A stretch of DNA of 64,000 nucleotides from an uncultured Bifidobacteriaceae bacterium (lineage in GTDB: Bacteria; Actinomycetota; Acidimicrobiia; IMCC26256; DASPTH01): contig CAZDJK010000048.1 of NCBI GenBank assembly GCA_964505725.1, positions 690-64,689 of the forward strand. Direction: 5' to 3'. Shown in pieces: positions 19,432 through 27,020 of the stretch. Below the pieces are notes generated by a model, which was given only the letters and a program-made list of their open reading frames with translations, searched no databases and was not told where the DNA came from. Each line of letters opens with the position of its first letter. The first letter of the stretch is position 1. A program made the translations under genes and the position numbers.

Positions 19432-20094
19432 ATGACCATCCGGGTGATCGTCGCCGAGGACAACTACCTGGTGCGCGAGGCGGTGACCCGGCTGCTCGAG
19501 ACCGAGCCCGACATCGAGGTGGCGGGTGTGTGCGGGGACTACGACGGTCTCATCGCGTCGGTCGGCGAGCTCACTCCCGACGTGGTCCTCACCGACATCC
19601 GCATGCCGCCGACCGGCACCGACGAGGGCGTGCGCGCCGCGGCCGAGCTGCGGGAGTCGCACCCGACGCTCGGCGTCGTGGTGCTGAGCCAGTACGTCGA
19701 CCCCACCTACGCGCTCGAGCTCCTCGACGCCGGCTCGGAGCGGCGTGCCTACCTGCTGAAGGAGCGGGTGTCCGACGTCGACCAGCTCGCCCGCGCCGTG
19801 CGCGAGGTGGCGGCCGGCGGGTCGGTCATCGACCCCAAGGTGGTCGAGGTGCTGGTCGAGGCGCGCGCCCGGAAGGCCGACTCGCCGCTCGACCGCCTCA
19901 CGCCGCGCGAGCACGAGGTGCTGGCCGAGATGGCTCAGGGGCGCAACAACGCCGCGGTCGCGGCCGCGCTCGGCCTCTCCGAGCGCGCGGTGGAGAAGCA
20001 CATCAACTCGGTGTTCTCGAAGCTCGGGCTGTCCGAGGAGCCCGACGTCCACCGCCGGGTGAAGGCGGTGCTGCTCTACCTCTCCGACCAGTAG
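19432..20094 (+). CDS. NarL/LuxR-family response regulator
   Basis: Receiver (AEDN, TDIRMPP, YLLK) plus LuxR HTH (LTPREHEVL, VEKHINSVFSKL). Confidence 0.95.
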   Translation: MTIRVIVAEDNYLVREAVTRLLETEPDIEVAGVCGDYDGLIASVGELTPDVVLTDIRMPPTGTDEGVRAAAELRESHPTLGVVVLSQYVDPTYALELLDAGSERRAYLLKERVSDVDQLARAVREVAAGGSVIDPKVVEVLVEARARKADSPLDRLTPREHEVLAEMAQGRNNAAVAAALGLSERAVEKHINSVFSKLGLSEEPDVHRRVKAVLLYLSDQ

Positions 20095-20207: not shown

Positions 20208-20588
20208 GTGGGCGAGGTCAAAGTGCTCATCGTCGACGACCAGGCACCGTTCCGGCGCGCCGCGCACGCGGTCATCGCGGCGACTCCGGGGTTCGAGGTC
20301 GCAGGCGAGGCGGAGAGCGGCGAGGAAGCGGTGGATCTCGCCGACGCGCTCGACCCCGGCCTCGTGCTCATGGACATCAACCTGCCGGGGATCAACGGGA
20401 TCGAGGCGACGCGCCGCATCGTCGCCGCGCACCCGGGCACCGTCGTGATGCTGCTGTCGACGTACCAGGCGGTCGACCTCCCTGCCGACGCCGAGTCCTG
20501 CGGCGCGGCGGCCTACATCCACAAGGAGCAGTTCGGCCCCAAGGTGGTCCGCGAGGTGTGGGAACAGCGCGACGGCAGCGCGGCCTGA
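20208..20588 (+). CDS. Single-domain response regulator (receiver only)
   Basis: VDDQ, MDINLPG and AYIHK motifs; 126 aa with no output domain. Confidence 0.9.
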   Translation: MGEVKVLIVDDQAPFRRAAHAVIAATPGFEVAGEAESGEEAVDLADALDPGLVLMDINLPGINGIEATRRIVAAHPGTVVMLLSTYQAVDLPADAESCGAAAYIHKEQFGPKVVREVWEQRDGSAA

Positions 20589-20608: not shown

Positions 20609-22771
20609 CTACGCCTCGGCGAGCGGGATCCGCCCCGAAACCCTCACGCCGTTCCCCGGTGACGACTCGACCTCGATGCTCCCCCCGATCGCGCCCACGC
20701 GGTCGCTCATGTTCACGAACCCGTGGCCGAGGTGCGCACCCGTCGTCACGTCGAACCCGGCACCGTCGTCGGCCACCTCGAAGAGCAGCGTGCCCGGCTC
20801 CTCGCGGACCGTCACCACCGCCTGCGCGCCCTGACCCGCGTGCTTCGCCGCGTTCTGGAGCGCCTCGAGGCAGCAGAAGTACACCGCGGCCTCGATCTGC
20901 TGCGGGTAGCGGCCGATGCCCTCGGCGTGGACGTCGGTCGGCAACGCGGCGCGCCCGGCGGCCGCGCTCAGCGCCTCCGGCAGGCCGCGGTCCATCAGCA
21001 GCGGCGGGTAGATGCCGTGCGCGAGGTTGCGAAGCTCCTGCACCGCGTCCTGGAGATCGCCGCCGATCTGCTCCAGCATCGCCTTGGCCGCCTCGGGGTC
21101 GGTGTCGGCGATCTGGCGCGCGAGGTTGACGTTGACCGCGAGCGCGACGAGGTGCTGCTGCGCACCGTCGTGCAGGTCGCGTTCGATGCGCCGGCGCTGC
21201 GCGTCGCCCGCCTCCACGATGCGCGAACGAGACGCACGCAGCTCGTCGGCCTGCCGGCGGACCTCGTCGAGCGACTCCTGCAGCGCGGAGTCGAGCTTCA
21301 CGTTGTGGAGCGCGAGGCCGACCTGGCGGGCCAGCTCGGTGAGGGCCTGCTCGTCGGGCTCGGCGAACTGGAGCGCGCCCTCGGGACGGCGCACCACGAT
21401 CATCCCGAGCAGCTCCCCGGAGTTGGTGATCGGCGCCACCCGGATGACCTCCTCGTCGTCGCCGAGCACGGCCGGCAGCCAGATGCGCGCCCACGCCGCC
21501 CCCGACACGCCCGCGCGCGCGATCACCGACTCCTCCTCGGTGCCGATCGGGAGGCGCGCCGGTCCGCGCTCGGGCACCGAGACCGCGCGCTCGAGGCCCC
21601 CGGTGCCGCGCGTCCACACCTCCGCGACCTCGAGCGACATCGTCTTGTTCAGCGACTCCGCGAGCTGGAGGAGCAGCTCGTCCAGGGGCAAGGCGCGGGT
21701 CAGGCGGCTCCCGAACGTGCGGAGAACCTCGTCCGGCGCGTGCCGCTCGCCGTACACGCGGCGGGTGGCGAGGCCGGTGAGCCGCTCCCGGACCGGCAGC
21801 CACAGCAGAGCGGCGACGGCCGCGGCGAGCATCGACAGGCCGAGGATGGTCTGCTCCTCACCGGTGGGCGAGTGACCGAGGCCGAGCACGACGACGAGGT
21901 AGCAGCCGGCGACCATCGCCGCGAGCCCGGCCAGCGTGATCGTGTGCACGAGGAGCCGATCGACGCGCACCGCGATCCGCTCCGACGAGCCCATCGCGAG
22001 CGCGAACGGGAGCAACGCGGTGGTTGCCACGGCGACGCCGCGCACCCCGTTCGGCCACGACACGAGGGCGTTGAGCACGAGTGCGACCAGTGACACGACC
22101 GCGGCGACCACGACCGCCCAGGCCACCCACTGGAGACGTGCCCGCTCGTGCGCGGTGCGCGCGCCGCGGCAGCGCGCCACGTACCCCACCGCGCCTGCGA
22201 ACGCGGCGACGCTCGCGACCGCCACGACCGAGCCGAGCGGGACCGCCGGCCGCTCGTCGAGGAGGTAGGCGGCGAGACCGGCTGCGGCGAGGTAGCCGAC
22301 GGCCGCGGTCACCCGCCGCACCGTCGTGCCGAGCACGCCGTCCGGGAGCCCGAGCGCGAGGTGGAGGCCGACGCCCGGGAGCAACGCGACCGCGATCGCC
22401 CGGATCGCCGCGCCCCAGTCGCGAGCGCCGTCGGTCGCCGCCTGCCGGGCTGCGAGAGAGGCTCCGAACAGCGCCATCGCGCCGATCAACGCGACCAGCG
22501 CCATCAGCAGGGCAAGGAGCTCGCGCGGACGTTGCAACGAGACGAACACGGCGGCGAGCGCCCATACGCCGACGAGCGCCGCAGCCAGGTAGCGGCCGGG
22601 CGAGGTGGTGGCGGGCTCGGCGAGGAGCAGCGCCAGCGCCACGATCGCGCCCGTGACCACCGAGGACGCAACCGTGGTCGTCGCGCGCGATGACCACGGA
22701 GGGCGCTCACGAACTTCGTCGCGGATGCTCGCGAGCTCGAGCGGCTCCACGTGTTCGAGGCTGCTGACCAC
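20609..22771 (-). CDS. Membrane sensor histidine kinase (multi-TM, GAF, HisKA_3, HATPase_c)
   Basis: ERDLHDGAQQHL, EALQNAAKHA, DDGAGF and GHGFVNMSDRV motifs; about 8-9 hydrophobic segments. Start uncertain (GTG 22771). Confidence 0.9.
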   Translation of the reverse strand: MVSSLEHVEPLELASIRDEVRERPPWSSRATTTVASSVVTGAIVALALLLAEPATTSPGRYLAAALVGVWALAAVFVSLQRPRELLALLMALVALIGAMALFGASLAARQAATDGARDWGAAIRAIAVALLPGVGLHLALGLPDGVLGTTVRRVTAAVGYLAAAGLAAYLLDERPAVPLGSVVAVASVAAFAGAVGYVARCRGARTAHERARLQWVAWAVVVAAVVSLVALVLNALVSWPNGVRGVAVATTALLPFALAMGSSERIAVRVDRLLVHTITLAGLAAMVAGCYLVVVLGLGHSPTGEEQTILGLSMLAAAVAALLWLPVRERLTGLATRRVYGERHAPDEVLRTFGSRLTRALPLDELLLQLAESLNKTMSLEVAEVWTRGTGGLERAVSVPERGPARLPIGTEEESVIARAGVSGAAWARIWLPAVLGDDEEVIRVAPITNSGELLGMIVVRRPEGALQFAEPDEQALTELARQVGLALHNVKLDSALQESLDEVRRQADELRASRSRIVEAGDAQRRRIERDLHDGAQQHLVALAVNVNLARQIADTDPEAAKAMLEQIGGDLQDAVQELRNLAHGIYPPLLMDRGLPEALSAAAGRAALPTDVHAEGIGRYPQQIEAAVYFCCLEALQNAAKHAGQGAQAVVTVREEPGTLLFEVADDGAGFDVTTGAHLGHGFVNMSDRVGAIGGSIEVESSPGNGVRVSGRIPLAEA

Positions 22772-22773
22772 GG

Positions 22774-22974
22774 CTACTCCGATCGTAGAACCGTCGCCGG
22801 CCGCAGACGAGCGGCGATGCGCACGAGGCGCGCGTGGGCCGTGTCGGTCCGGCGCGCGCCGCCCGCGGCCGCGAGCACCACTCCGCCCGCGAAGCCGACG
22901 AGCAGCGCCAGCGCGAGCGTCGCGCGCCATCGCGCCCGCAGCTCGGCTCGGAACCGGCACCGGACAGCTGCCAA
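22774..22974 (-). pseudogene. Truncated N-terminus of an FtsX-like ABC permease
   Basis: MAAV..RFRAELRARWRATLALALLVGFAGGVVLAAAGGARRTDTA directly follows the ABC ATPase, then stops at 66 aa. Confidence 0.7.
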
Positions 22975-22989
22975 CGGGACCCTGCGCCG

Positions 22990-23718
22990 CTAGGAGAAGG
23001 TCCGGAGCACGGTCTCGGCCGCGGCTTCGTCGGCCGCGCTCTCGATGCGACCGTCGCGCATGCGCACGATCCGGTCGGCGGCGGCGGCGACGGCGTCGTC
23101 GTGCGTCACCATGAGGATGGTCTGCCCGCCGGCGTGCAGGCGGCGGAAGAGCTCGAGCACCTCGTGGCCGCCCTCGGAGTCGAGCGCACCGGTGGGCTCG
23201 TCGGCGAGGAGCAGGGTGGGCTCGTTGGCGAGCGCCCGCGCGATCGCGAGGCGTTGGCGCTGCCCGCCGGACAGGACACCCGGCGCATCCTTGGCCTTGT
23301 CGGCCAGGCCGAGGAGGTCGAGGAGGTCCCGCGCGTGCGTCTCGGCCCGCTTGCGCGGCGCGCCCGCGATGACCGCGGGCAGCGTGACGTTCTCCAGCAC
23401 GCTCATCCCCTCGAGCAGGTTGAAGAACTGGAAGACGATCCCGATGTGGCGGCGCCGCATGATCGCGAGCTCGTCCTCCGACTTGCCGACGAGCGACTGG
23501 CCTGCAAGCACGATGTCGCCGTCGGTCGGGGTGTCGAGCCCGGCGACCATGTTCAGCATCGTCGACTTACCACACCCGGACGGCCCCATCACCGCGACGA
23601 ATTCGCCGTTGATCATCGTGAAGTCGACGCCCCGCAACGCGCGCACGGGCGCACCCTCGGACTCGAACGTCTTCCGGAGGCCGTGCGTCTCGACCACCAG
23701 GCCTTCACTCGCAGTCAT
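22990..23718 (-). CDS. ABC transporter ATP-binding protein (LolD/MacB-like)
   Basis: GPSGCGKST, LSGGQRQR, LLADEPTGALDS and VTHD motifs. Confidence 0.95.
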   Translation of the reverse strand: MTASEGLVVETHGLRKTFESEGAPVRALRGVDFTMINGEFVAVMGPSGCGKSTMLNMVAGLDTPTDGDIVLAGQSLVGKSEDELAIMRRRHIGIVFQFFNLLEGMSVLENVTLPAVIAGAPRKRAETHARDLLDLLGLADKAKDAPGVLSGGQRQRLAIARALANEPTLLLADEPTGALDSEGGHEVLELFRRLHAGGQTILMVTHDDAVAAAADRIVRMRDGRIESAADEAAAETVLRTFS

Positions 23719-25052
23719 GTCTCGCCCCCTTCCTCGTACACGTCGATCCGGTACGCGTGCACCGGCGTCTGCCTTCCCTTCACCAGGACCTCGTCGAGCT
23801 CGACGCAGTCGACCGGTTCGTGCAGCGCGACGTAGGTGGAGTCGTTCAGCACGATGCGCCCCGCGGGCCGCGCCAGGTCCTGGAGCCGCTGCGCGAGGTT
23901 CACGGTGTCGCCGACGAGCGTGTACTCGAGGCGCTCCTCCGATCCGAGCAGCGCGGCGGCGACCGGGCCCGTCGCCAGCCCGACGCCGAGCCCGAACGCG
24001 GGCCGTCCCATCTGCTCCCACGCACCGTTCAGCGCGTGCTGCCGCTCCAGCATCGAGATCGCCGCCTTCACCGCTCGGTCGGCGTGGTCCTCGAGCGGCA
24101 CCGGCGCACCGAAGCACGCCATCACCGCGTCGCCGACGAACTGCATCACCGTGCCACCCTCGTCGAGGATCGCATGGTTCATCTCCGCGCGGTGCTCGCT
24201 CAGCTGGGCCGCGAGGTGCGAGGGGTCGTTGTGCTCCGCGATCCCCGAGTAGCCGCGGATGTCGGCCATGAGCACCGTGACGACCAGGTCCTCGGTCTCG
24301 CCGATCTTGCGGCCCTCGTTGCGGAGCTTGTCGGCGAGCCCACCCGGGAGGAGCCGGCTGAGCTGCTCGCCCTGCTCCTCGCGGTCGACGATCGCCTGGT
24401 GCAGCATCCGCAGGCGCCGCAGCGCGCCGGTGGTCCCCGTGCTCGCGCCCTCCGACAACTTGAGGAAGAGCTGCTCCACCGCGTCGGCGACCGCCGCCGC
24501 GGTGGTGTTGCGCGACGCCGCCATCGCCTTGATCGGGCGGCCCTCCGCGACCTCGTGCAGCAGCCGCTCGTCGGCCGCGGTGAGCCCGGAGTCGTCGGTG
24601 ACCGGCTGCACGAGCGCCTCGACGATCTTCGGGTCGATCACCGAGCCCCCGGTGGCGACCTCGCGGACTGCCCGTGCCAGCTGGTCGCCCTCGGCGACGC
24701 GGTCCTTCAAGAGATAGGCGTAGCCGGCCGCTCCCTCGCTCAGCAGCGCGATCGCGTAGTCGGGGTCGTCGTACTGCGACAGCACCACCACCCCGGTGCC
24801 GGGATGCCGCTTGCGGAGCTCCTTGGCCGCGTCGATCCCCTCGCGCTGGAAGCTCGGCGGCATGCGGATGTCGGTGACCAGCACCTGGGGCGCCGCCGCC
24901 TCCGCGCCCGCGATCAGGCTGTCGTAGTCGTCGGCGGTCCCGACCACGTCGAGGTCGTGCTCGAGCCCCAGCAGCGCGCGGACGCCTTCCCGGACGATGA
25001 CGTTGTCGTCGGCGAGAAAGACCGTGATGCGCCCGTCCCCCATGCCTGTCAT
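23715..25052 (-). CDS. Receiver domain-class III nucleotide cyclase fusion
   Basis: N-terminal REC (ADDN, TDIRMPP, YLLK), a partial LuxR-like helix region, then the cyclase (ADIRGYS, QFVGDAVMA, YTLVGDTVNLAQRL). Confidence 0.9.
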   Translation of the reverse strand: MTGMGDGRITVFLADDNVIVREGVRALLGLEHDLDVVGTADDYDSLIAGAEAAAPQVLVTDIRMPPSFQREGIDAAKELRKRHPGTGVVVLSQYDDPDYAIALLSEGAAGYAYLLKDRVAEGDQLARAVREVATGGSVIDPKIVEALVQPVTDDSGLTAADERLLHEVAEGRPIKAMAASRNTTAAAVADAVEQLFLKLSEGASTGTTGALRRLRMLHQAIVDREEQGEQLSRLLPGGLADKLRNEGRKIGETEDLVVTVLMADIRGYSGIAEHNDPSHLAAQLSEHRAEMNHAILDEGGTVMQFVGDAVMACFGAPVPLEDHADRAVKAAISMLERQHALNGAWEQMGRPAFGLGVGLATGPVAAALLGSEERLEYTLVGDTVNLAQRLQDLARPAGRIVLNDSTYVALHEPVDCVELDEVLVKGRQTPVHAYRIDVYEEGGET

Positions 25053-25226: not shown

Positions 25227-26219
25227 ATGCGCATCGAAACGTCGGTCACGAGCATCTCCTGGATTCCGTCCGAGGCCGTGACCGGGCCGGTCCTGAAGGG
25301 CACCTTCGAGTCCGGGTTCACCCACTACGACGAGCCCCCACCCGACGCCATCGGCGACCTCGAGGCGCTGTGCGAGGCCGGGGCGTTCCGGTTCGCCAAC
25401 CATCTGGTGGCATGGGCCGAGATCGCCGACGGGCGTATCGTCGACGCCGGCTACTCGGGTGGCGGCCTCATGGGCCGGACGAGCGTGAAGCTCGCCAAGG
25501 TCCGGGCGACGTTCGAGCCTGCCGCGCTCCCCGACATCCGTTCCGACCCCGAGATCACCGAGACCGCGGTGCGGTTCGTGCAGACGACGGGCGGCCGGAC
25601 CGGCCTGCCGGCGCCCCGCCGGGTGAAGCACCCGCCGTTCGTGCAGTTCCGCGCCCCGACGGTGTGGACCACGCTCGCGCTCACGATCCGCGCCGACGGC
25701 ACGTCGAGCTTCGAGGTCCTCGGCGCGAGCAAGTTCCCCCGTCACTGGGTGTACGACGCGGACGGCAAGCTGAGCGCGAAGGTCGGGCTCGCCGACTTCA
25801 AGGACTGGTACCGCGACGCGTTCGGCAAGCACACGCCGTGGGGCGACCGCGATTCGCGGGCGCTCGTGACCGCGGTGGAGAGCGCCCTCGAACGACGCCT
25901 GTCGACCACGATCATGCGCGGCGGCGCCAAGCCGGAGATCCGCACCCTGAAGGAAGGCGCGCACCTCGTCGACCAGGGCGACACCGGGCGCGAGCTCTAC
26001 CTGGTGCTCGACGGCGTGCTCTCGGTGCAGATCGACGGCGAGCCCATCGCCGAGGTCGGCCCGGGCGCCATCCTCGGTGAGCGGGCGGTGCTCGAAGGCG
26101 GGACCAGAACCGCGACGCTGGTCGCGGCCACGAACGTGCGGGTCGCGGCCGCTGCGCCCGACCAGATCGACCGGGCCGCGCTGGAGGAGCTCGCGGCTTC
26201 GCATCGACGGGGTGAATGA
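25227..26219 (+). CDS. Cyclic nucleotide-binding domain protein with an uncharacterised N-terminal domain
   Basis: C-terminal LVDQGDTGRELYLVLDG...LGERAVL...RTAT cNMP cassette; RBS upstream. Confidence 0.85.
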   Translation: MRIETSVTSISWIPSEAVTGPVLKGTFESGFTHYDEPPPDAIGDLEALCEAGAFRFANHLVAWAEIADGRIVDAGYSGGGLMGRTSVKLAKVRATFEPAALPDIRSDPEITETAVRFVQTTGGRTGLPAPRRVKHPPFVQFRAPTVWTTLALTIRADGTSSFEVLGASKFPRHWVYDADGKLSAKVGLADFKDWYRDAFGKHTPWGDRDSRALVTAVESALERRLSTTIMRGGAKPEIRTLKEGAHLVDQGDTGRELYLVLDGVLSVQIDGEPIAEVGPGAILGERAVLEGGTRTATLVAATNVRVAAAAPDQIDRAALEELAASHRRGE

Positions 26220-26243: not shown

Positions 26244-27020
26244 ATGCGGATCGCGACCTGGAACGTCAACTCGCTCAAGGCGCGCATGCCGCGCGTGGAA
26301 GAGTGGTTGGCGTACGCGCAACCCGACGTCCTGTGTCTGCAGGAGACGAAGCTCGCCGACGACGCGTTCCCAGCGTTGGCGTTCTCCGCGCTCGGCTACG
26401 CGTCCGCGCAGCACGGCCACAACCAGTGGAACGGCGTCGCCATCCTGTCGCGGGTCGGGATCGACGACGTCACGACCGGCTTCGACGCGACCGTCGTCGA
26501 CCCCTACGAGGGTGACGCCCGGCTCCTGGCGGCGACATGCGCTGGGGTGCGGGTGGTCAGCGTCTACGTGCCCAACGGACGCGAGGTGGGCACCGAGTTC
26601 TACGACCGCAAGCTCGAGTGGCTCGACCGCCTCGCCGAATGGGTGCCGAGCCAGGCGTCGCCCGCCGACCCCCTCGCGGTGCTGGGCGACTTCAACGTCG
26701 CGCCCGACGACCGCGACGTGTGGTCGGTGAAGGCGTTCGCGGGGGTCACCCACGTCACCGAGCCCGAGCGCGCCGCGGTCGCCCGGCTCGGCGAGTGGGG
26801 GCTCTACGACGCGTTCCGCTGCCGCTATGCCGATGATCGCCTGTTCTCGTACTGGGACTACCGCCGGGGCGACTTCCACGAGCACCGAGGCATGCGCATC
26901 GACCTCGCGTTCACGACGCAACCGCTCGTCGACCGTCTCCGGTGGGCGGTGATCGACCGCAACGCGCGCAAGGGCAAGCTTCCGTCCGACCACGCCCCCG
27001 TGATCCTGGATTTCACGTGA
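26244..27020 (+). CDS. xth: Exodeoxyribonuclease III / AP endonuclease
   Basis: ATWNVNS, LQETK, YVPNG, GDFNVAP, RID and SDHAP motifs. Confidence 0.95.
   Translation: MRIATWNVNSLKARMPRVEEWLAYAQPDVLCLQETKLADDAFPALAFSALGYASAQHGHNQWNGVAILSRVGIDDVTTGFDATVVDPYEGDARLLAATCAGVRVVSVYVPNGREVGTEFYDRKLEWLDRLAEWVPSQASPADPLAVLGDFNVAPDDRDVWSVKAFAGVTHVTEPERAAVARLGEWGLYDAFRCRYADDRLFSYWDYRRGDFHEHRGMRIDLAFTTQPLVDRLRWAVIDRNARKGKLPSDHAPVILDFT

What the first reader, a model, noticed from the sequence alone, without database searches (positions are those of the whole stretch)
23715..25052. REC-cyclase fusion with Gln at the purine-specificity Lys and a vestigial LuxR helix
Seen: the metal Asp residues (ADIRG, GD) and the N/R pair (NLAQR) are intact, but the motif reads MQFVGD (Gln codon at 24141-24143). 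Known: class III adenylate cyclases have K(F/Y)xGD, and guanylate cyclases have Glu at that position. Between REC and cyclase lies LTAADERLLHEVAEGRPIKAMAASRNTTAAAVADAVEQLFLKL, a degenerate LuxR HTH. The REC closely parallels the neighbouring NarL (TDIRMPP, VVVLSQY.DP.YA, YLLK.RV, GGSVIDPK.VE.LV). Inference: a NarL paralogue captured a cyclase domain, possibly with non-ATP or relaxed specificity.
Basis: partly seen in the sequence, partly recalled or inferred. Interest (0 to 1): 0.55.

Follow-up and report, generated by a model that had tools for sequence, protein, structure and literature searches.

The report
Response-regulator cyclase lacking the purine-binding lysine
This gene encodes a phosphorylation-switched enzyme that makes a cyclic-nucleotide signal. 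It belongs to a large, old actinobacterial branch in which the lysine that normally reads the adenine base is always glutamine, so what the enzyme makes is an open and testable question.

Summary
Window 23715-25052 (minus strand) encodes a 445-aa protein with three parts: an intact NarL-type receiver, a degenerate LuxR-type helix-turn-helix (HTH) remnant, and a class IIIb nucleotide cyclase. The cyclase keeps both metal Asp residues, the Asn/Arg pair and the class IIIb Thr. It has Gln304 (CAG, 24141-24143) where solved adenylate cyclases have Lys and a solved guanylate cyclase has Glu.

The fusion is ancient, not a local capture. Relatives with the canonical Lys share the same three-part architecture in other Actinomycetota.

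The Gln is not an isolated change. It marks a clade found in 47 loci of the public-genome scan, three from cultured strains (Microbispora, Planotetraspora, Spongisporangium). Other active-site positions change with it, such as Phe to Met two residues before the first metal Asp, and Asp-Lys to Met-Gln.

The gene sits in a conserved module: the genome's only HisKA_3 kinase, a NarL paralogue, a lone receiver, an ABC ATPase, and a divergently transcribed cNMP-binding protein. The ligand-site residues of that binding protein differ according to the cyclase type beside it.

The product (cAMP, cGMP or both) cannot be decided from sequence. Gln at this position is already known in Rv0386, so this is a new variant of a known kind and of moderate interest.

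The parts
23715..25052 (-). Gene for the 445-aa REC / HTH-remnant / class IIIb cyclase protein (P0001), stop codon included
   Evidence: Single open frame, GC3 0.95. Pfam REC plus Guanylate_cyc. Same length as its orthologues.
24678..25028 (-). Receiver domain, residues 9-125. Asp15/Asp16, phospho-acceptor Asp61 (codon 24870-24872), Ser92 and Lys116 are all present.
   Evidence: Pfam PF00072 at residues 11-111. These residues are invariant or nearly so in alignments A1-A3. 51% identical to the neighbouring NarL.
24441..24590 (-). Degenerate LuxR-type HTH remnant, residues 155-204 (predicted helices 159-169, 174-180, 185-204). The basic residues of the recognition helix are replaced by Ala/Asp.
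   Evidence: NCBIfam NarL, MadR and MctR models align over residues 9-199. No GerE hit in Pfam at E 0.1. BLASTP to the NarL covers the region. AF2 helices. The hydrophobic core is conserved.
24303..24440 (-). Helical linker, residues 205-250. Predicted long helix 208-232 and helix 236-245 directly before the cyclase core.
   Evidence: AF2 model. The 'LRRLRMLHQAIVDREEQGE..LSRLLP' stretch is highly conserved. pLDDT is low at 224-234.
23742..24302 (-). Class IIIb cyclase catalytic domain, residues 251-437. Metal Asp264 and Asp308, Asn385, Arg389, Lys425.
   Evidence: Pfam 78 bits. phmmer to 3r5g, 2w01 and 1wc0. Foldseek TM 0.83-0.89 normalised by target length.
24141..24143 (-). Gln304 codon (CAG) at the substrate-specifying Lys position, four residues before metal Asp308
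   Evidence: Invariant in the clade.
23919..23921 (-). Thr378 codon, the class IIIb counterpart of the adenine-binding Asp, seven residues before Asn385
   Evidence: Aligns to the Thr of CyaB/CyaC 'D[YF]T'. Thr or Ser in all clade members.
24267..24269 (-). Met262 codon, two residues before metal Asp264. Phe in all Lys-type relatives. Same position as the specificity residue Phe100 of the cytidylate cyclase EaPycC.
   Evidence: Discriminating column. 'M.D' versus 'F.D' in 77 loci. PMC11224242.
25053..25226 (.). 174-bp divergent intergenic region between the cyclase gene and the cNMP-binding gene
   Evidence: Sequence read. GGAGG lies 8 nt (cggagcg) upstream of the ATG at 25227.
25227..26219 (+). 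Divergently transcribed 330-aa protein. N-terminal beta-rich domain of unknown function plus a C-terminal cNMP-binding domain ('GER..RTAT' cassette, 'HRR.E' end). Likely receptor of the cyclase product.
   Evidence: Pfam PF00027. Adjacent to the cyclase in 15 of 18 class loci and nearby in two more and in further loci. AF2 and VIA.
22990..23715 (-). ABC-transporter ATPase gene directly downstream on the same strand (start codon not fixed; frame read from 23715)
   Evidence: Pfam ABC_tran. NCBIfam MacB/LolD/FtsE-like. Conserved downstream of the cyclase in 10 of 18 class loci and in further loci of both types. Fused gene calls P0274 and P0276.
20609..22960 (-). GAF / HisKA_3 / HATPase sensor kinase (start uncertain), the only HisKA_3 kinase in the genome. 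Probable phosphodonor.
   Evidence: Pfam. One PF07730 match in the whole genome. Syntenic in the class.
19432..20094 (+). NarL-family response regulator with an intact GerE HTH, the closest paralogue of the cyclase's REC-HTH part
   Evidence: Pfam. BLASTP 51%. The only other strong match in the genome, 172 bits.
20208..20588 (+). Single-domain receiver protein
   Evidence: Pfam PF00072. Syntenic next to the NarL in most loci.

Best explanation
The gene encodes an active nucleotide cyclase that is switched by two-component phosphorylation.

Shown:
- An intact NarL-type receiver.
- A conserved but degenerate LuxR HTH remnant, followed by a predicted helical linker.
- A class IIIb cyclase domain with a complete catalytic set, except that the base- and bicarbonate-site Lys is Gln304.
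- Membership of an old clade with the signature M-x-D ... M-Q-[FY]-x-G-D ... [TS].
- Conserved synteny with the genome's only HisKA_3 kinase, a NarL paralogue, a lone receiver, an ABC ATPase and a divergent cNMP-binding protein.

Inferred mechanism:
1. The GAF-HisKA_3 kinase phosphorylates Asp61.
2. The receiver plus HTH remnant changes its dimer state. The remnant now serves as a structural lever, not a DNA binder.
3. The helical linker brings two cyclase domains into the catalytic head-to-tail dimer.
4. The cyclic nucleotide made is read by the neighbouring cNMP-binding protein.

The product is most likely still cAMP, with base reading by Gln304/Thr378 looser than by Lys/Thr and without the canonical bicarbonate-site Lys. 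The product is the least certain step.
For: - Domains and residues.
- Fold: AF2 pLDDT 80. Foldseek top hits are Cya2, CyaB and CyaC, with TM 0.83-0.89 by target length.
- Purifying selection: the catalytic residues, Gln304, Thr378 and the HTH/linker core are invariant or nearly so across 41 sequences, 18 class-wide loci and 47 scan loci.
- One kinase: a single PF07730 match in a 97%-complete genome. NarL-type receivers occur only in this island.
- Synteny: cNMP-binding gene, cyclase, ABC ATPase, kinase, lone receiver and NarL recur in 18 loci, and in Lys-type relatives.
- Precedent that a Gln at this position still gives mainly adenylate cyclase activity: Rv0386, a Gln/Asn enzyme with adenylate and some guanylate cyclase activity. 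This rests on my recollection of Castro et al. 2005. A preprint echoes it (10.1101/2024.03.06.583649) but names Rv2488c in that sentence.
- The other cyclase domains aligned in the genome show no Gln at this position; most have Lys. Thirteen cNMP-binding domains show extensive cAMP-type signalling.
- The partner protein has Ala, as PKA does, where PKG-type cGMP binders have the beta5 Arg.
Against: - No enzyme assay exists for any member of the clade.
- The Lys is the main adenine N1 contact in class III enzymes. Here it changes together with at least six other cyclase-domain positions. Two of these, Met262 and Gln304, are at positions that set base choice in a cytidylate cyclase (PMC11224242).
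- The neighbouring receptor's phosphate-binding cassette and C-terminal lid differ between Gln-type and Lys-type modules. A change of ligand would predict exactly that.
- Phosphotransfer, dimerisation and expression are all inferred.
Confidence: 0.55

Rival explanations
1. Changed product. The Gln-type clade is a guanylate or dual-specificity (cGMP/cAMP) cyclase, and the adjacent type-1 cNMP-binding protein is its matched receptor. Together they give Actinomycetota a private messenger channel beside their many adenylate cyclases.
For: - Gln can donate and accept hydrogen bonds, so it could read guanine O6/N1-H. Rv0386 (Gln/Asn) has guanylate side activity (my recollection).
- Only one of the aligned cyclase domains in the genome carries Gln.
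- The Gln clade is separated from Lys relatives by a long branch (1.13 changes per site, support 99/99) with coordinated active-site changes.
- The partner proteins next to Gln-type cyclases have 'GER' in the phosphate-binding cassette plus an 'HRRE' lid. Those next to Lys-type cyclases, or unlinked, have 'GEM' and no His/Glu. The only three strictly discriminating columns over 330 aa all lie in the cNMP domain.
- In the cGMP-selective CNB-D domain of PfPKG, the Arg right after the cassette Glu caps guanine together with acidic or amide residues of the C-helix. R484A lowers cGMP affinity about 85-fold (PMC4412288).
Against: - There is no Glu at the key position, which characterised guanylate cyclases have (for Cya2).
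- The second position stays Thr/Ser, as in bicarbonate-type adenylate cyclases.
- The partner lacks the beta5 Arg used by PKG for guanine.
- 'RT[AS]' in the cassette also occurs in cAMP binders (my recollection of HCN and M. tuberculosis CRP).
- The cyclase/receptor co-variation rests on what looks like one evolutionary split, so it has no statistical weight. One Gln-type locus has 'GEL' (L205).
Confidence: 0.3
2. Pyrimidine cyclase, Pycsar-like. The enzyme makes cCMP or cUMP, and the neighbour is the effector.
For: - PADLOC PycC models hit the cyclase (best 67 bits), and Pycsar effector models hit the neighbour's cNMP domain.
- Met262 and Gln304 occupy the positions of Phe100 and Arg142, the specificity residues of EaPycC.
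- A cyclase next to a cNMP-binding protein is the Pycsar layout.
Against: - The PycC scores are below the generic Pfam score (78 bits), so they reflect general homology only.
- The closest structures are purine cyclases.
- The neighbour has no TIR or membrane effector domain.
- The module is vertically conserved with a two-component system across a class and beyond. It does not look like a mobile defence island.
Confidence: 0.05
3. Catalytically silent. The cyclase domain is a pseudo-enzyme kept as a dimerisation or nucleotide-sensing module.
For: Loss of the Lys lowers activity strongly in mutational studies of class III enzymes (my recollection). One close relative has Ala at the position (L084, G248).
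Against: Both metal Asp residues, Asn385, Arg389 and Lys425 are invariant over the whole clade. That is not expected for a dead enzyme. A dedicated cNMP-binding neighbour is conserved.
Confidence: 0.05
4. Still a transcription factor. The HTH remnant binds DNA, for example in the divergent promoter region, so the protein is bifunctional.
For: The segment keeps HTH length, predicted helices and a conserved core. The gene is divergent from its putative partner, with a 174-bp spacer.
Against: There is no GerE match even at E 0.1. The recognition-helix stretch reads 'TAAAVADAVEQLF' against 'SERAVEKHINSVF' in the NarL, so the Lys/His that face DNA are Asp/Ala. The last helix continues into the cyclase linker.
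Confidence: 0.05

Closest known systems
Class IIIb adenylate cyclases CyaB (P. aeruginosa, 3r5g) and CyaC (Spirulina platensis, 1wc0), and human soluble adenylyl cyclase
   Same: Best sequence and fold matches: E 6e-25 and 3e-21, TM 0.83-0.89 by target length. Same metal Asp residues, same Asn/Arg, and same Thr in place of the adenine-binding Asp.
   Different: These have Lys four residues before the second metal Asp. That Lys binds adenine, and in sAC the equivalent Lys95 forms the bicarbonate site with Arg176 (PMC12250328). Here the residue is Gln304, preceded by Met instead of Asp, and Met replaces Phe before the first metal Asp. N-terminal regulation differs as well.
Rv0386 of Mycobacterium tuberculosis (class IIIc cyclase with a Gln/Asn pair)
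   Same: A class III cyclase with Gln at the Lys position. Reported as an adenylate cyclase with guanylate side activity that depends on the Gln-Asn pair (my recollection of Castro et al. 2005; the preprint echoes this but names Rv2488c in that sentence). Also actinobacterial, and also linked with a LuxR-type HTH.
   Different: The second residue is Asn there and Thr here. Rv0386 is class IIIc with the order cyclase / ATPase / LuxR HTH. Here the order is REC / HTH remnant / cyclase, and the domain is IIIb-like. The Rv0386-like paralogues in this genome mostly have Lys/Asp.
NarL/FixJ-family response regulators (NarL 1a04, DosR/DevR 3c3w, DesR 4ldz, VraR)
   Same: Residues 9-201 align to full-length regulators of this family: 3c3w at E 4e-19 over 9-201 and NCBIfam MadR/MctR/NarL over 9-199. 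The phospho-acceptor pocket is intact. It is paired with a HisKA_3 kinase, as this family is.
   Different: The HTH fails the GerE model and has lost the basic recognition-helix residues. The output is an enzyme domain.
Lys-type REC / HTH-remnant / cyclase proteins of other Actinomycetota (P0135 and P0138 family)
   Same: Same three-part architecture at 42-46% identity. Same neighbourhood with a NarL and kinases.
   Different: They keep the canonical 'F.D ... DK[F].GD ... T'. They form the other side of a long branch. Most lack the type-1 cNMP-binding neighbour.
Pycsar/Pucsar cyclase-effector pairs
   Same: A class III-like cyclase encoded next to a protein with a cNMP-binding domain. In these systems base choice is set by a few residues at the same motif positions (PMC11224242; preprint 10.64898/2026.08.12.744502).
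   Different: There is no TIR or membrane effector. Regulation is by a two-component system, and inheritance is vertical with conserved synteny. PADLOC scores are only at the level of general homology.

Membership tests
Class III nucleotidyl cyclase (Pfam PF00211) | Catalytic-domain profile match above the curated cut-off | tested here: met
   78.1 bits against a cut-off of 21.9, residues 258-429.
Class III nucleotidyl cyclase (Pfam PF00211) | Two metal-binding Asp residues plus the transition-state Asn and Arg | tested here: met
   Asp264, Asp308, Asn385 and Arg389 align to the catalytic residues of 3r5g, 1wc0 and 2w01. Invariant in the clade.
Class III nucleotidyl cyclase (Pfam PF00211) | Cyclase fold | tested here: met
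   AF2 model, then Foldseek to 2w01, 3r5g and 1wc0/1wc1: E about 1e-17 to 1e-18, TM by target 0.83-0.89.
Class III nucleotidyl cyclase (Pfam PF00211) | Formation of a 3',5'-cyclic nucleotide from an NTP | not testable with these tools
   Needs an enzyme assay.
Canonical adenylate cyclase of class IIIb (Lys/Thr pair) | Lys four residues before the second metal Asp (adenine N1 contact, bicarbonate-site residue) | tested here: not met
   Gln304. No other conserved Lys apart from Lys425 of 'VKGR'.
Canonical adenylate cyclase of class IIIb (Lys/Thr pair) | Thr/Ser instead of Asp seven residues before the catalytic Asn | tested here: met
   Thr378 aligns with the Thr of CyaB/CyaC. Thr or Ser throughout the clade.
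Guanylate cyclase (class III) | Glu at the Lys position, with a small or Cys residue at the second position | tested here: not met
   Cya2 has Glu where this protein has Gln. The second position is Thr here and Gly in Cya2.
Rv0386-type Gln/Asn cyclases | Gln at the Lys position AND Asn at the Asp position, in a class IIIc cyclase / ATPase / LuxR architecture | tested here: not met
   Gln is present, but the second residue is Thr and the architecture is REC / HTH remnant / IIIb cyclase. The Rv0386 sequence itself was not on hand, so its features are from my recollection.
NarL/FixJ response regulators | Receiver with acidic pocket, phospho-acceptor Asp, Ser/Thr and Lys | tested here: met
   Asp15/Asp16, Asp61, Ser92 and Lys116. 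51% identity to the adjacent NarL.
NarL/FixJ response regulators | LuxR/GerE-type HTH (PF00196) able to bind DNA | tested here: not met
   No PF00196 match at E up to 0.1, whereas the neighbour scores 50.6 bits. Homology of the segment is still visible. DNA binding itself is not testable here.
Pycsar (PycC cyclase plus effector) | PycC-specific match, with an adjacent effector that has a cNMP domain fused to TIR or transmembrane helices | tested here: not met
   PycC models score at most 67 bits, below the generic Pfam score. The neighbour has a beta-rich domain like 3c5p and no TIR or TM domain.

The most novel reading that the evidence does not exclude
The 'M-x-D ... M-Q-[FY]-x-G-D ... T/S' cyclases form a distinct functional subclass of class IIIb enzymes that makes something other than plain cAMP: cGMP, both purine cNMPs, or another cNMP. 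In Acidimicrobiia and Streptosporangiales they work with a co-evolved receptor, the 'GER/HRRE' cNMP-binding protein with a BAS0735-like domain. That would be a second, insulated cyclic-nucleotide channel under two-component control.
Probability: 0.3. Interest if true: 0.75.

Novelty: new variant of a known kind. Interest (0 to 1): 0.5.

Why it matters
Class III cyclases are routinely annotated as adenylate or guanylate cyclases from the Lys/Asp or Glu/Cys pair. A large branch that has neither cannot be annotated by that rule. This branch is well conserved, catalytically intact, and reaches from uncultured soil Acidimicrobiia to cultured Microbispora and Planotetraspora.

If the branch makes cGMP or mixed products, it adds a widespread bacterial cGMP-type pathway with a ready-made receptor candidate. 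If it makes cAMP, it shows that the 'essential' Lys can be replaced by Gln plus compensating changes, probably at the price of bicarbonate control.

It is also a clear example of a DNA-binding response regulator turned into an enzyme regulator while keeping the shell of its HTH. The cultured carriers make all of this testable.

Tried and rejected
- **Recent local duplication and capture from the adjacent NarL:** rejected. The NarL / REC-cyclase pair, at 42-52% identity (mostly 44-49%), recurs in most genomes that carry the gene, and Lys-type relatives share the fusion.
- **A second Lys in the pocket:** none is conserved.
- **Reading the ligand from the partner's cNMP cassette:** inconclusive. 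'GER' resembles PfPKG CNB-D. The beta5 Arg of PKG is absent, and profile scores per domain to PKA and PKG domains are alike.
- **Pycsar membership:** only general homology.
- **Literature on Rv0386 residues:** the primary paper is not held and the held copy of PMC2447327 lacks the text. Only an indirect statement was found.
- **Literature on REC-cyclase regulators:** searches returned nothing specific.
- **Foldseek on the partner protein:** matched only its cNMP domain.
- **Unpublished genomes:** the phylum samples flagged G217, G312, G338 and G422 as unpublished. One type-2 partner sequence (L191, from G312) was in the alignment. No claim depends on it, and it should be left out of counts.
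Full report
**1. What is there**

The minus strand of window 23715-25052 is one open frame of 445 codons. GC at third codon positions is 0.95 and the frame plot fits, which marks it as the real gene in this 73% G+C sequence.

- Pfam finds a receiver at residues 11-111 and a class III cyclase domain at 258-429 (78 bits against a cut-off of 21.9).
- The Gln codon (CAG on the coding strand) is at 24141-24143.

**2. The Gln really is at the specificity position**

HMMER alignments to solved structures put Gln304 on the Lys of 'DKFVGD' in CyaB (3r5g) and CyaC (1wc0). They put it on the Glu of 'DEFMGD' in the guanylate cyclase Cya2 (2w01). Thr378 falls on the Thr that replaces the adenine-binding Asp in class IIIb enzymes.

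Asp264 and Asp308 (metals), Asn385 and Arg389 (transition state) and Lys425 ('VKGR') are all present.

An AlphaFold2 model (mean pLDDT 80) matches Cya2, CyaB and CyaC with TM-scores of 0.83-0.89 normalised by target length.

The only other Lys in the domain, Lys329, is not conserved.

In human soluble adenylyl cyclase, the Lys four residues before the second metal Asp (Lys95 before Asp99) forms the bicarbonate site with Arg176 (PMC12250328). Gln304 is four residues before Asp308, so by inference the canonical bicarbonate Lys is missing as well.

**3. The segment between receiver and cyclase**

- Full-length NarL, MadR and MctR models of NCBIfam align over residues 9-199.
- The solved regulator DevR aligns over 9-201.
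- BLASTP to the neighbouring NarL (19432-20094) gives 51% identity over 196 residues, through the HTH.
- Pfam's GerE model does not match even at E 0.1. It scores 50.6 bits on the neighbour.
- In the recognition helix the neighbour's '...EKH...' reads '...ADA...' here.
- The model predicts helices 159-169, 174-180 and 185-204, then a long helix 208-232 and a short one 236-245 before the cyclase core. pLDDT is low at 224-234.
- The hydrophobic core of the segment and the linker are among the best conserved parts of the protein.

So this is a whole HTH domain that has lost its DNA-reading face and is kept as structure. It is not a single vestigial helix.

**4. How common it is, and how old**

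The word-indexed search gave 6701 proteins at E 1e-10 or better. The best 120 are 74-86% identical, apart from two shorter entries identical to the query and one 656-aa protein at 68%. Where named, they come from Acidimicrobiia metagenome bins.

In a sample of 201 genomes of the class, 33 had a match at E 1e-40 or better. About 30 of these are full-length orthologues; the rest are matches to the NarL paralogue only. Occurrence is patchy over many families. Two copies are broken, in G056 and G038.

A scan of one genome per species found 47 loci with Gln plus Thr/Ser. They include the cultured Microbispora corallina NBRC 16416, Planotetraspora thailandica NBRC 104271 and Spongisporangium articulatum. 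In the same scan, 30 other cyclase loci, mostly from other phyla, all had 'F.D ... [DN]K[FY].GD ... T'.

Proteins with the same three-part architecture but canonical Lys (P0135 and P0138, 42-46% identical) exist. They are common in other families of the phylum, again next to a NarL and kinases.

A maximum-likelihood tree of 37 family members plus one outgroup paralogue puts all 23 Gln proteins, plus one with Ala at the position (L084, G248), on one side of a branch 1.13 changes per site long (support 99/99). The 13 Lys proteins are on the other side. The outgroup branch is very long, so the root is not secure. Lys is the state in the outgroup and in all other phyla.

Fusion therefore came first, and the Lys/Gln difference arose once within the fused family.

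Two sequences with 'DQF' (L137, P0165) look like intermediates.

The same Gln-type domain also occurs behind membrane-type N-termini of about 600 aa, and in gene calls fused to an ABC ATPase.

**5. The Gln does not change alone**

Columns that are fixed and different between the two clades:

| Position | Gln clade | Lys clade | Note |
|---|---|---|---|
| 262 | Met | Phe | two residues before the first metal Asp |
| 288 | Arg | Leu | |
| 303 | Met | Asp | |
| 304 | Gln | Lys | |
| 360 | Ser | Asn | |
| 367 | Ala | Gly | |
| 371 | Ser | Gly | |
| 111 | Tyr | Leu | in the receiver |
| 213 | Arg | Glu | in the linker |

In the cytidylate cyclase EaPycC the specificity residues are Phe100, Arg142 and Gln144, with metal Asp residues at 102 and 146 (PMC11224242). 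Phe100 and Arg142 are therefore at the same motif positions as Met262 and Gln304. The base pocket has been remodelled, not just mutated at one residue.

**6. Context**

The genome is 3.15 Mb and 97% complete.

- It holds 19 matches to the cyclase domain model. In the alignment of the paralogues, only this one has Gln at the position. Most of the rest have Lys, and many are Rv0386-like long proteins with Lys/Asp.
- It has 13 cNMP-binding domains and 19 receivers.
- It has a single HisKA_3 kinase, which lies two genes downstream of the cyclase.
- The only strong matches to the REC-HTH part are the adjacent NarL (172 bits) and the lone receiver.

The gene order is: cNMP-binding gene divergent from the cyclase, then (often) an ABC ATPase, then the kinase, with the lone receiver and the NarL convergent. 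In 18 loci spread over the class, the cNMP-binding gene is directly beside the cyclase in 15 and within 6 kb in two more.

**7. The neighbour as a clue to the product**

The 330-aa neighbour (25227-26219; GGAGG lies 8 nt upstream of its ATG) has a beta-rich N-terminal domain. Its only structural match is BAS0735 of unknown function (3c5p; Z 12.0, rmsd 4.1, 178 residues aligned). It also has a C-terminal cNMP-binding domain.

The family was found in 46 of 401 sampled genomes of the phylum. It comes in two forms:

- **Type 1:** 'GER..RT[AS]T' in the phosphate-binding cassette and a C-terminal 'HRRE'. It lies beside Gln-type cyclases in about 25 genomes. One exception has 'GEL' (L205).
- **Type 2:** 'GEM..RTAT' and no His/Glu in the lid. 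It lies near Lys-type cyclases (L074, L075, L188), or unlinked and in several copies in family f47.

Only three columns over 330 residues separate the types strictly, and all three lie in the cNMP domain.

In the cGMP-selective CNB-D domain of the Plasmodium kinase PKG, the Arg directly after the cassette Glu stacks on guanine and pairs with Gln/Asp of the C-helix. Its loss costs about 85-fold in cGMP affinity (PMC4412288).

This makes a change of ligand plausible but does not show it:

- The partner has Ala, as PKA does, where PKG has the guanine-reading beta5 Arg.
- Profile scores per domain to PKA and PKG domains are alike.
- The co-variation reflects what seems to be a single split, so it carries no statistical weight.

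**8. How it most likely works**

Shown: domain make-up, intact catalytic and phospho-acceptor residues, conservation and synteny.

Inferred: the GAF-HisKA_3 kinase phosphorylates Asp61. The receiver with its HTH shell changes its association. The helix that continues from the last HTH helix transmits this to the cyclase pair. The product is bound by the divergent cNMP-binding protein. Its output, through a domain of unknown function, is not known.

I put 0.55 on this picture with cAMP as the main product and looser base reading. I put 0.3 on cGMP or dual specificity, and about 0.05 each on a pyrimidine product, a silent enzyme, or retained DNA binding.

**9. Comparison with what is known**

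REC-cyclase architectures are routinely annotated. The source names read 'class 3 adenylate cyclase/DNA-binding NarL/FixJ family response regulator'.

Gln at the Lys position is known from Rv0386, which pairs it with Asn, belongs to class IIIc and has a different architecture. This rests on my recollection, with an indirect echo.

I found no characterised enzyme with the Gln/Thr pair or the M..MQ signature. Nor did I find a paper on this family. The library lacks most subscription journals, so this is absence of evidence only.

Verdict: a new variant of a known kind. It is well supported as a real and conserved feature, with an open and testable question about its product.

**10. Limits**

- Model coordinates could not be inspected, so pocket geometry, including Arg288, is untested.
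- Genomes G217, G312, G338 and G422 in the samples are unpublished. L191 (from G312) should be dropped from the type-2 count.

Noticed in passing
window 25227-25900 (N-terminal domain of the cNMP-binding protein): A beta-rich domain of about 215 aa with conserved 'SWIPSE', 'HYD.PPPD', 'GGRTG.PAPR' and 'FPRHW' motifs. It has no Pfam or NCBIfam family. Its only structural match is BAS0735 of Bacillus anthracis (3c5p, unknown function; Z 12.0, rmsd 4.1, 178 aligned). The family occurs in 46 of 401 sampled Actinomycetota genomes, with up to 4 matches per genome in family f47.
   Followed up: partly
window 22990-23715 (-), and proteins P0274 and P0276: The MacB/LolD/FtsE-like ABC ATPase directly downstream of the cyclase is conserved at 74-89% identity in 10 of 18 class loci, and also next to Lys-type cyclases of family f51. 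Two metagenomic gene calls fuse a Gln-type cyclase domain to an ABC ATPase. No full-length permease was seen beside it in the window.
   Followed up: partly
whole genome G000: A 3.15-Mb genome with 19 matches to the class III cyclase domain model and 13 cNMP-binding domains, but only one HisKA_3 kinase and one NarL-type DNA-binding regulator. Cyclic-nucleotide signalling is very heavy relative to NarL-type two-component signalling.
   Followed up: partly
G056:C1:43889-45065 and G038:C8:168219-169500: Two orthologues of the cyclase look broken. One is split over two frames. The other has an in-frame TGA between the receiver/HTH half and the cyclase half.
   Followed up: no
window 26244-27020 (+): An endonuclease/exonuclease/phosphatase-family gene starts 25 nt after the cNMP-binding gene and is syntenic in some relatives (L043, L046, L054). 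In G367 (L203) the partner's open frame instead runs on into a stretch with an HxHxDH-type 'HLHWDH' metallo-hydrolase motif. Either could be a phosphodiesterase for the messenger.
   Followed up: no
L084 (G248:C16, family f47): The closest outlier of the Gln clade has Ala at the position ('GTVMAFIGD'), with the rest of the signature intact. The side chain at this position is therefore not strictly required in that lineage.
   Followed up: no
L137 and P0165: Two family members read 'DQF.GD'. L137 still has Phe before the first metal Asp; that motif was not recovered for the shorter P0165. They are possible intermediates between the Lys-type and the full M..MQ signature.
   Followed up: no
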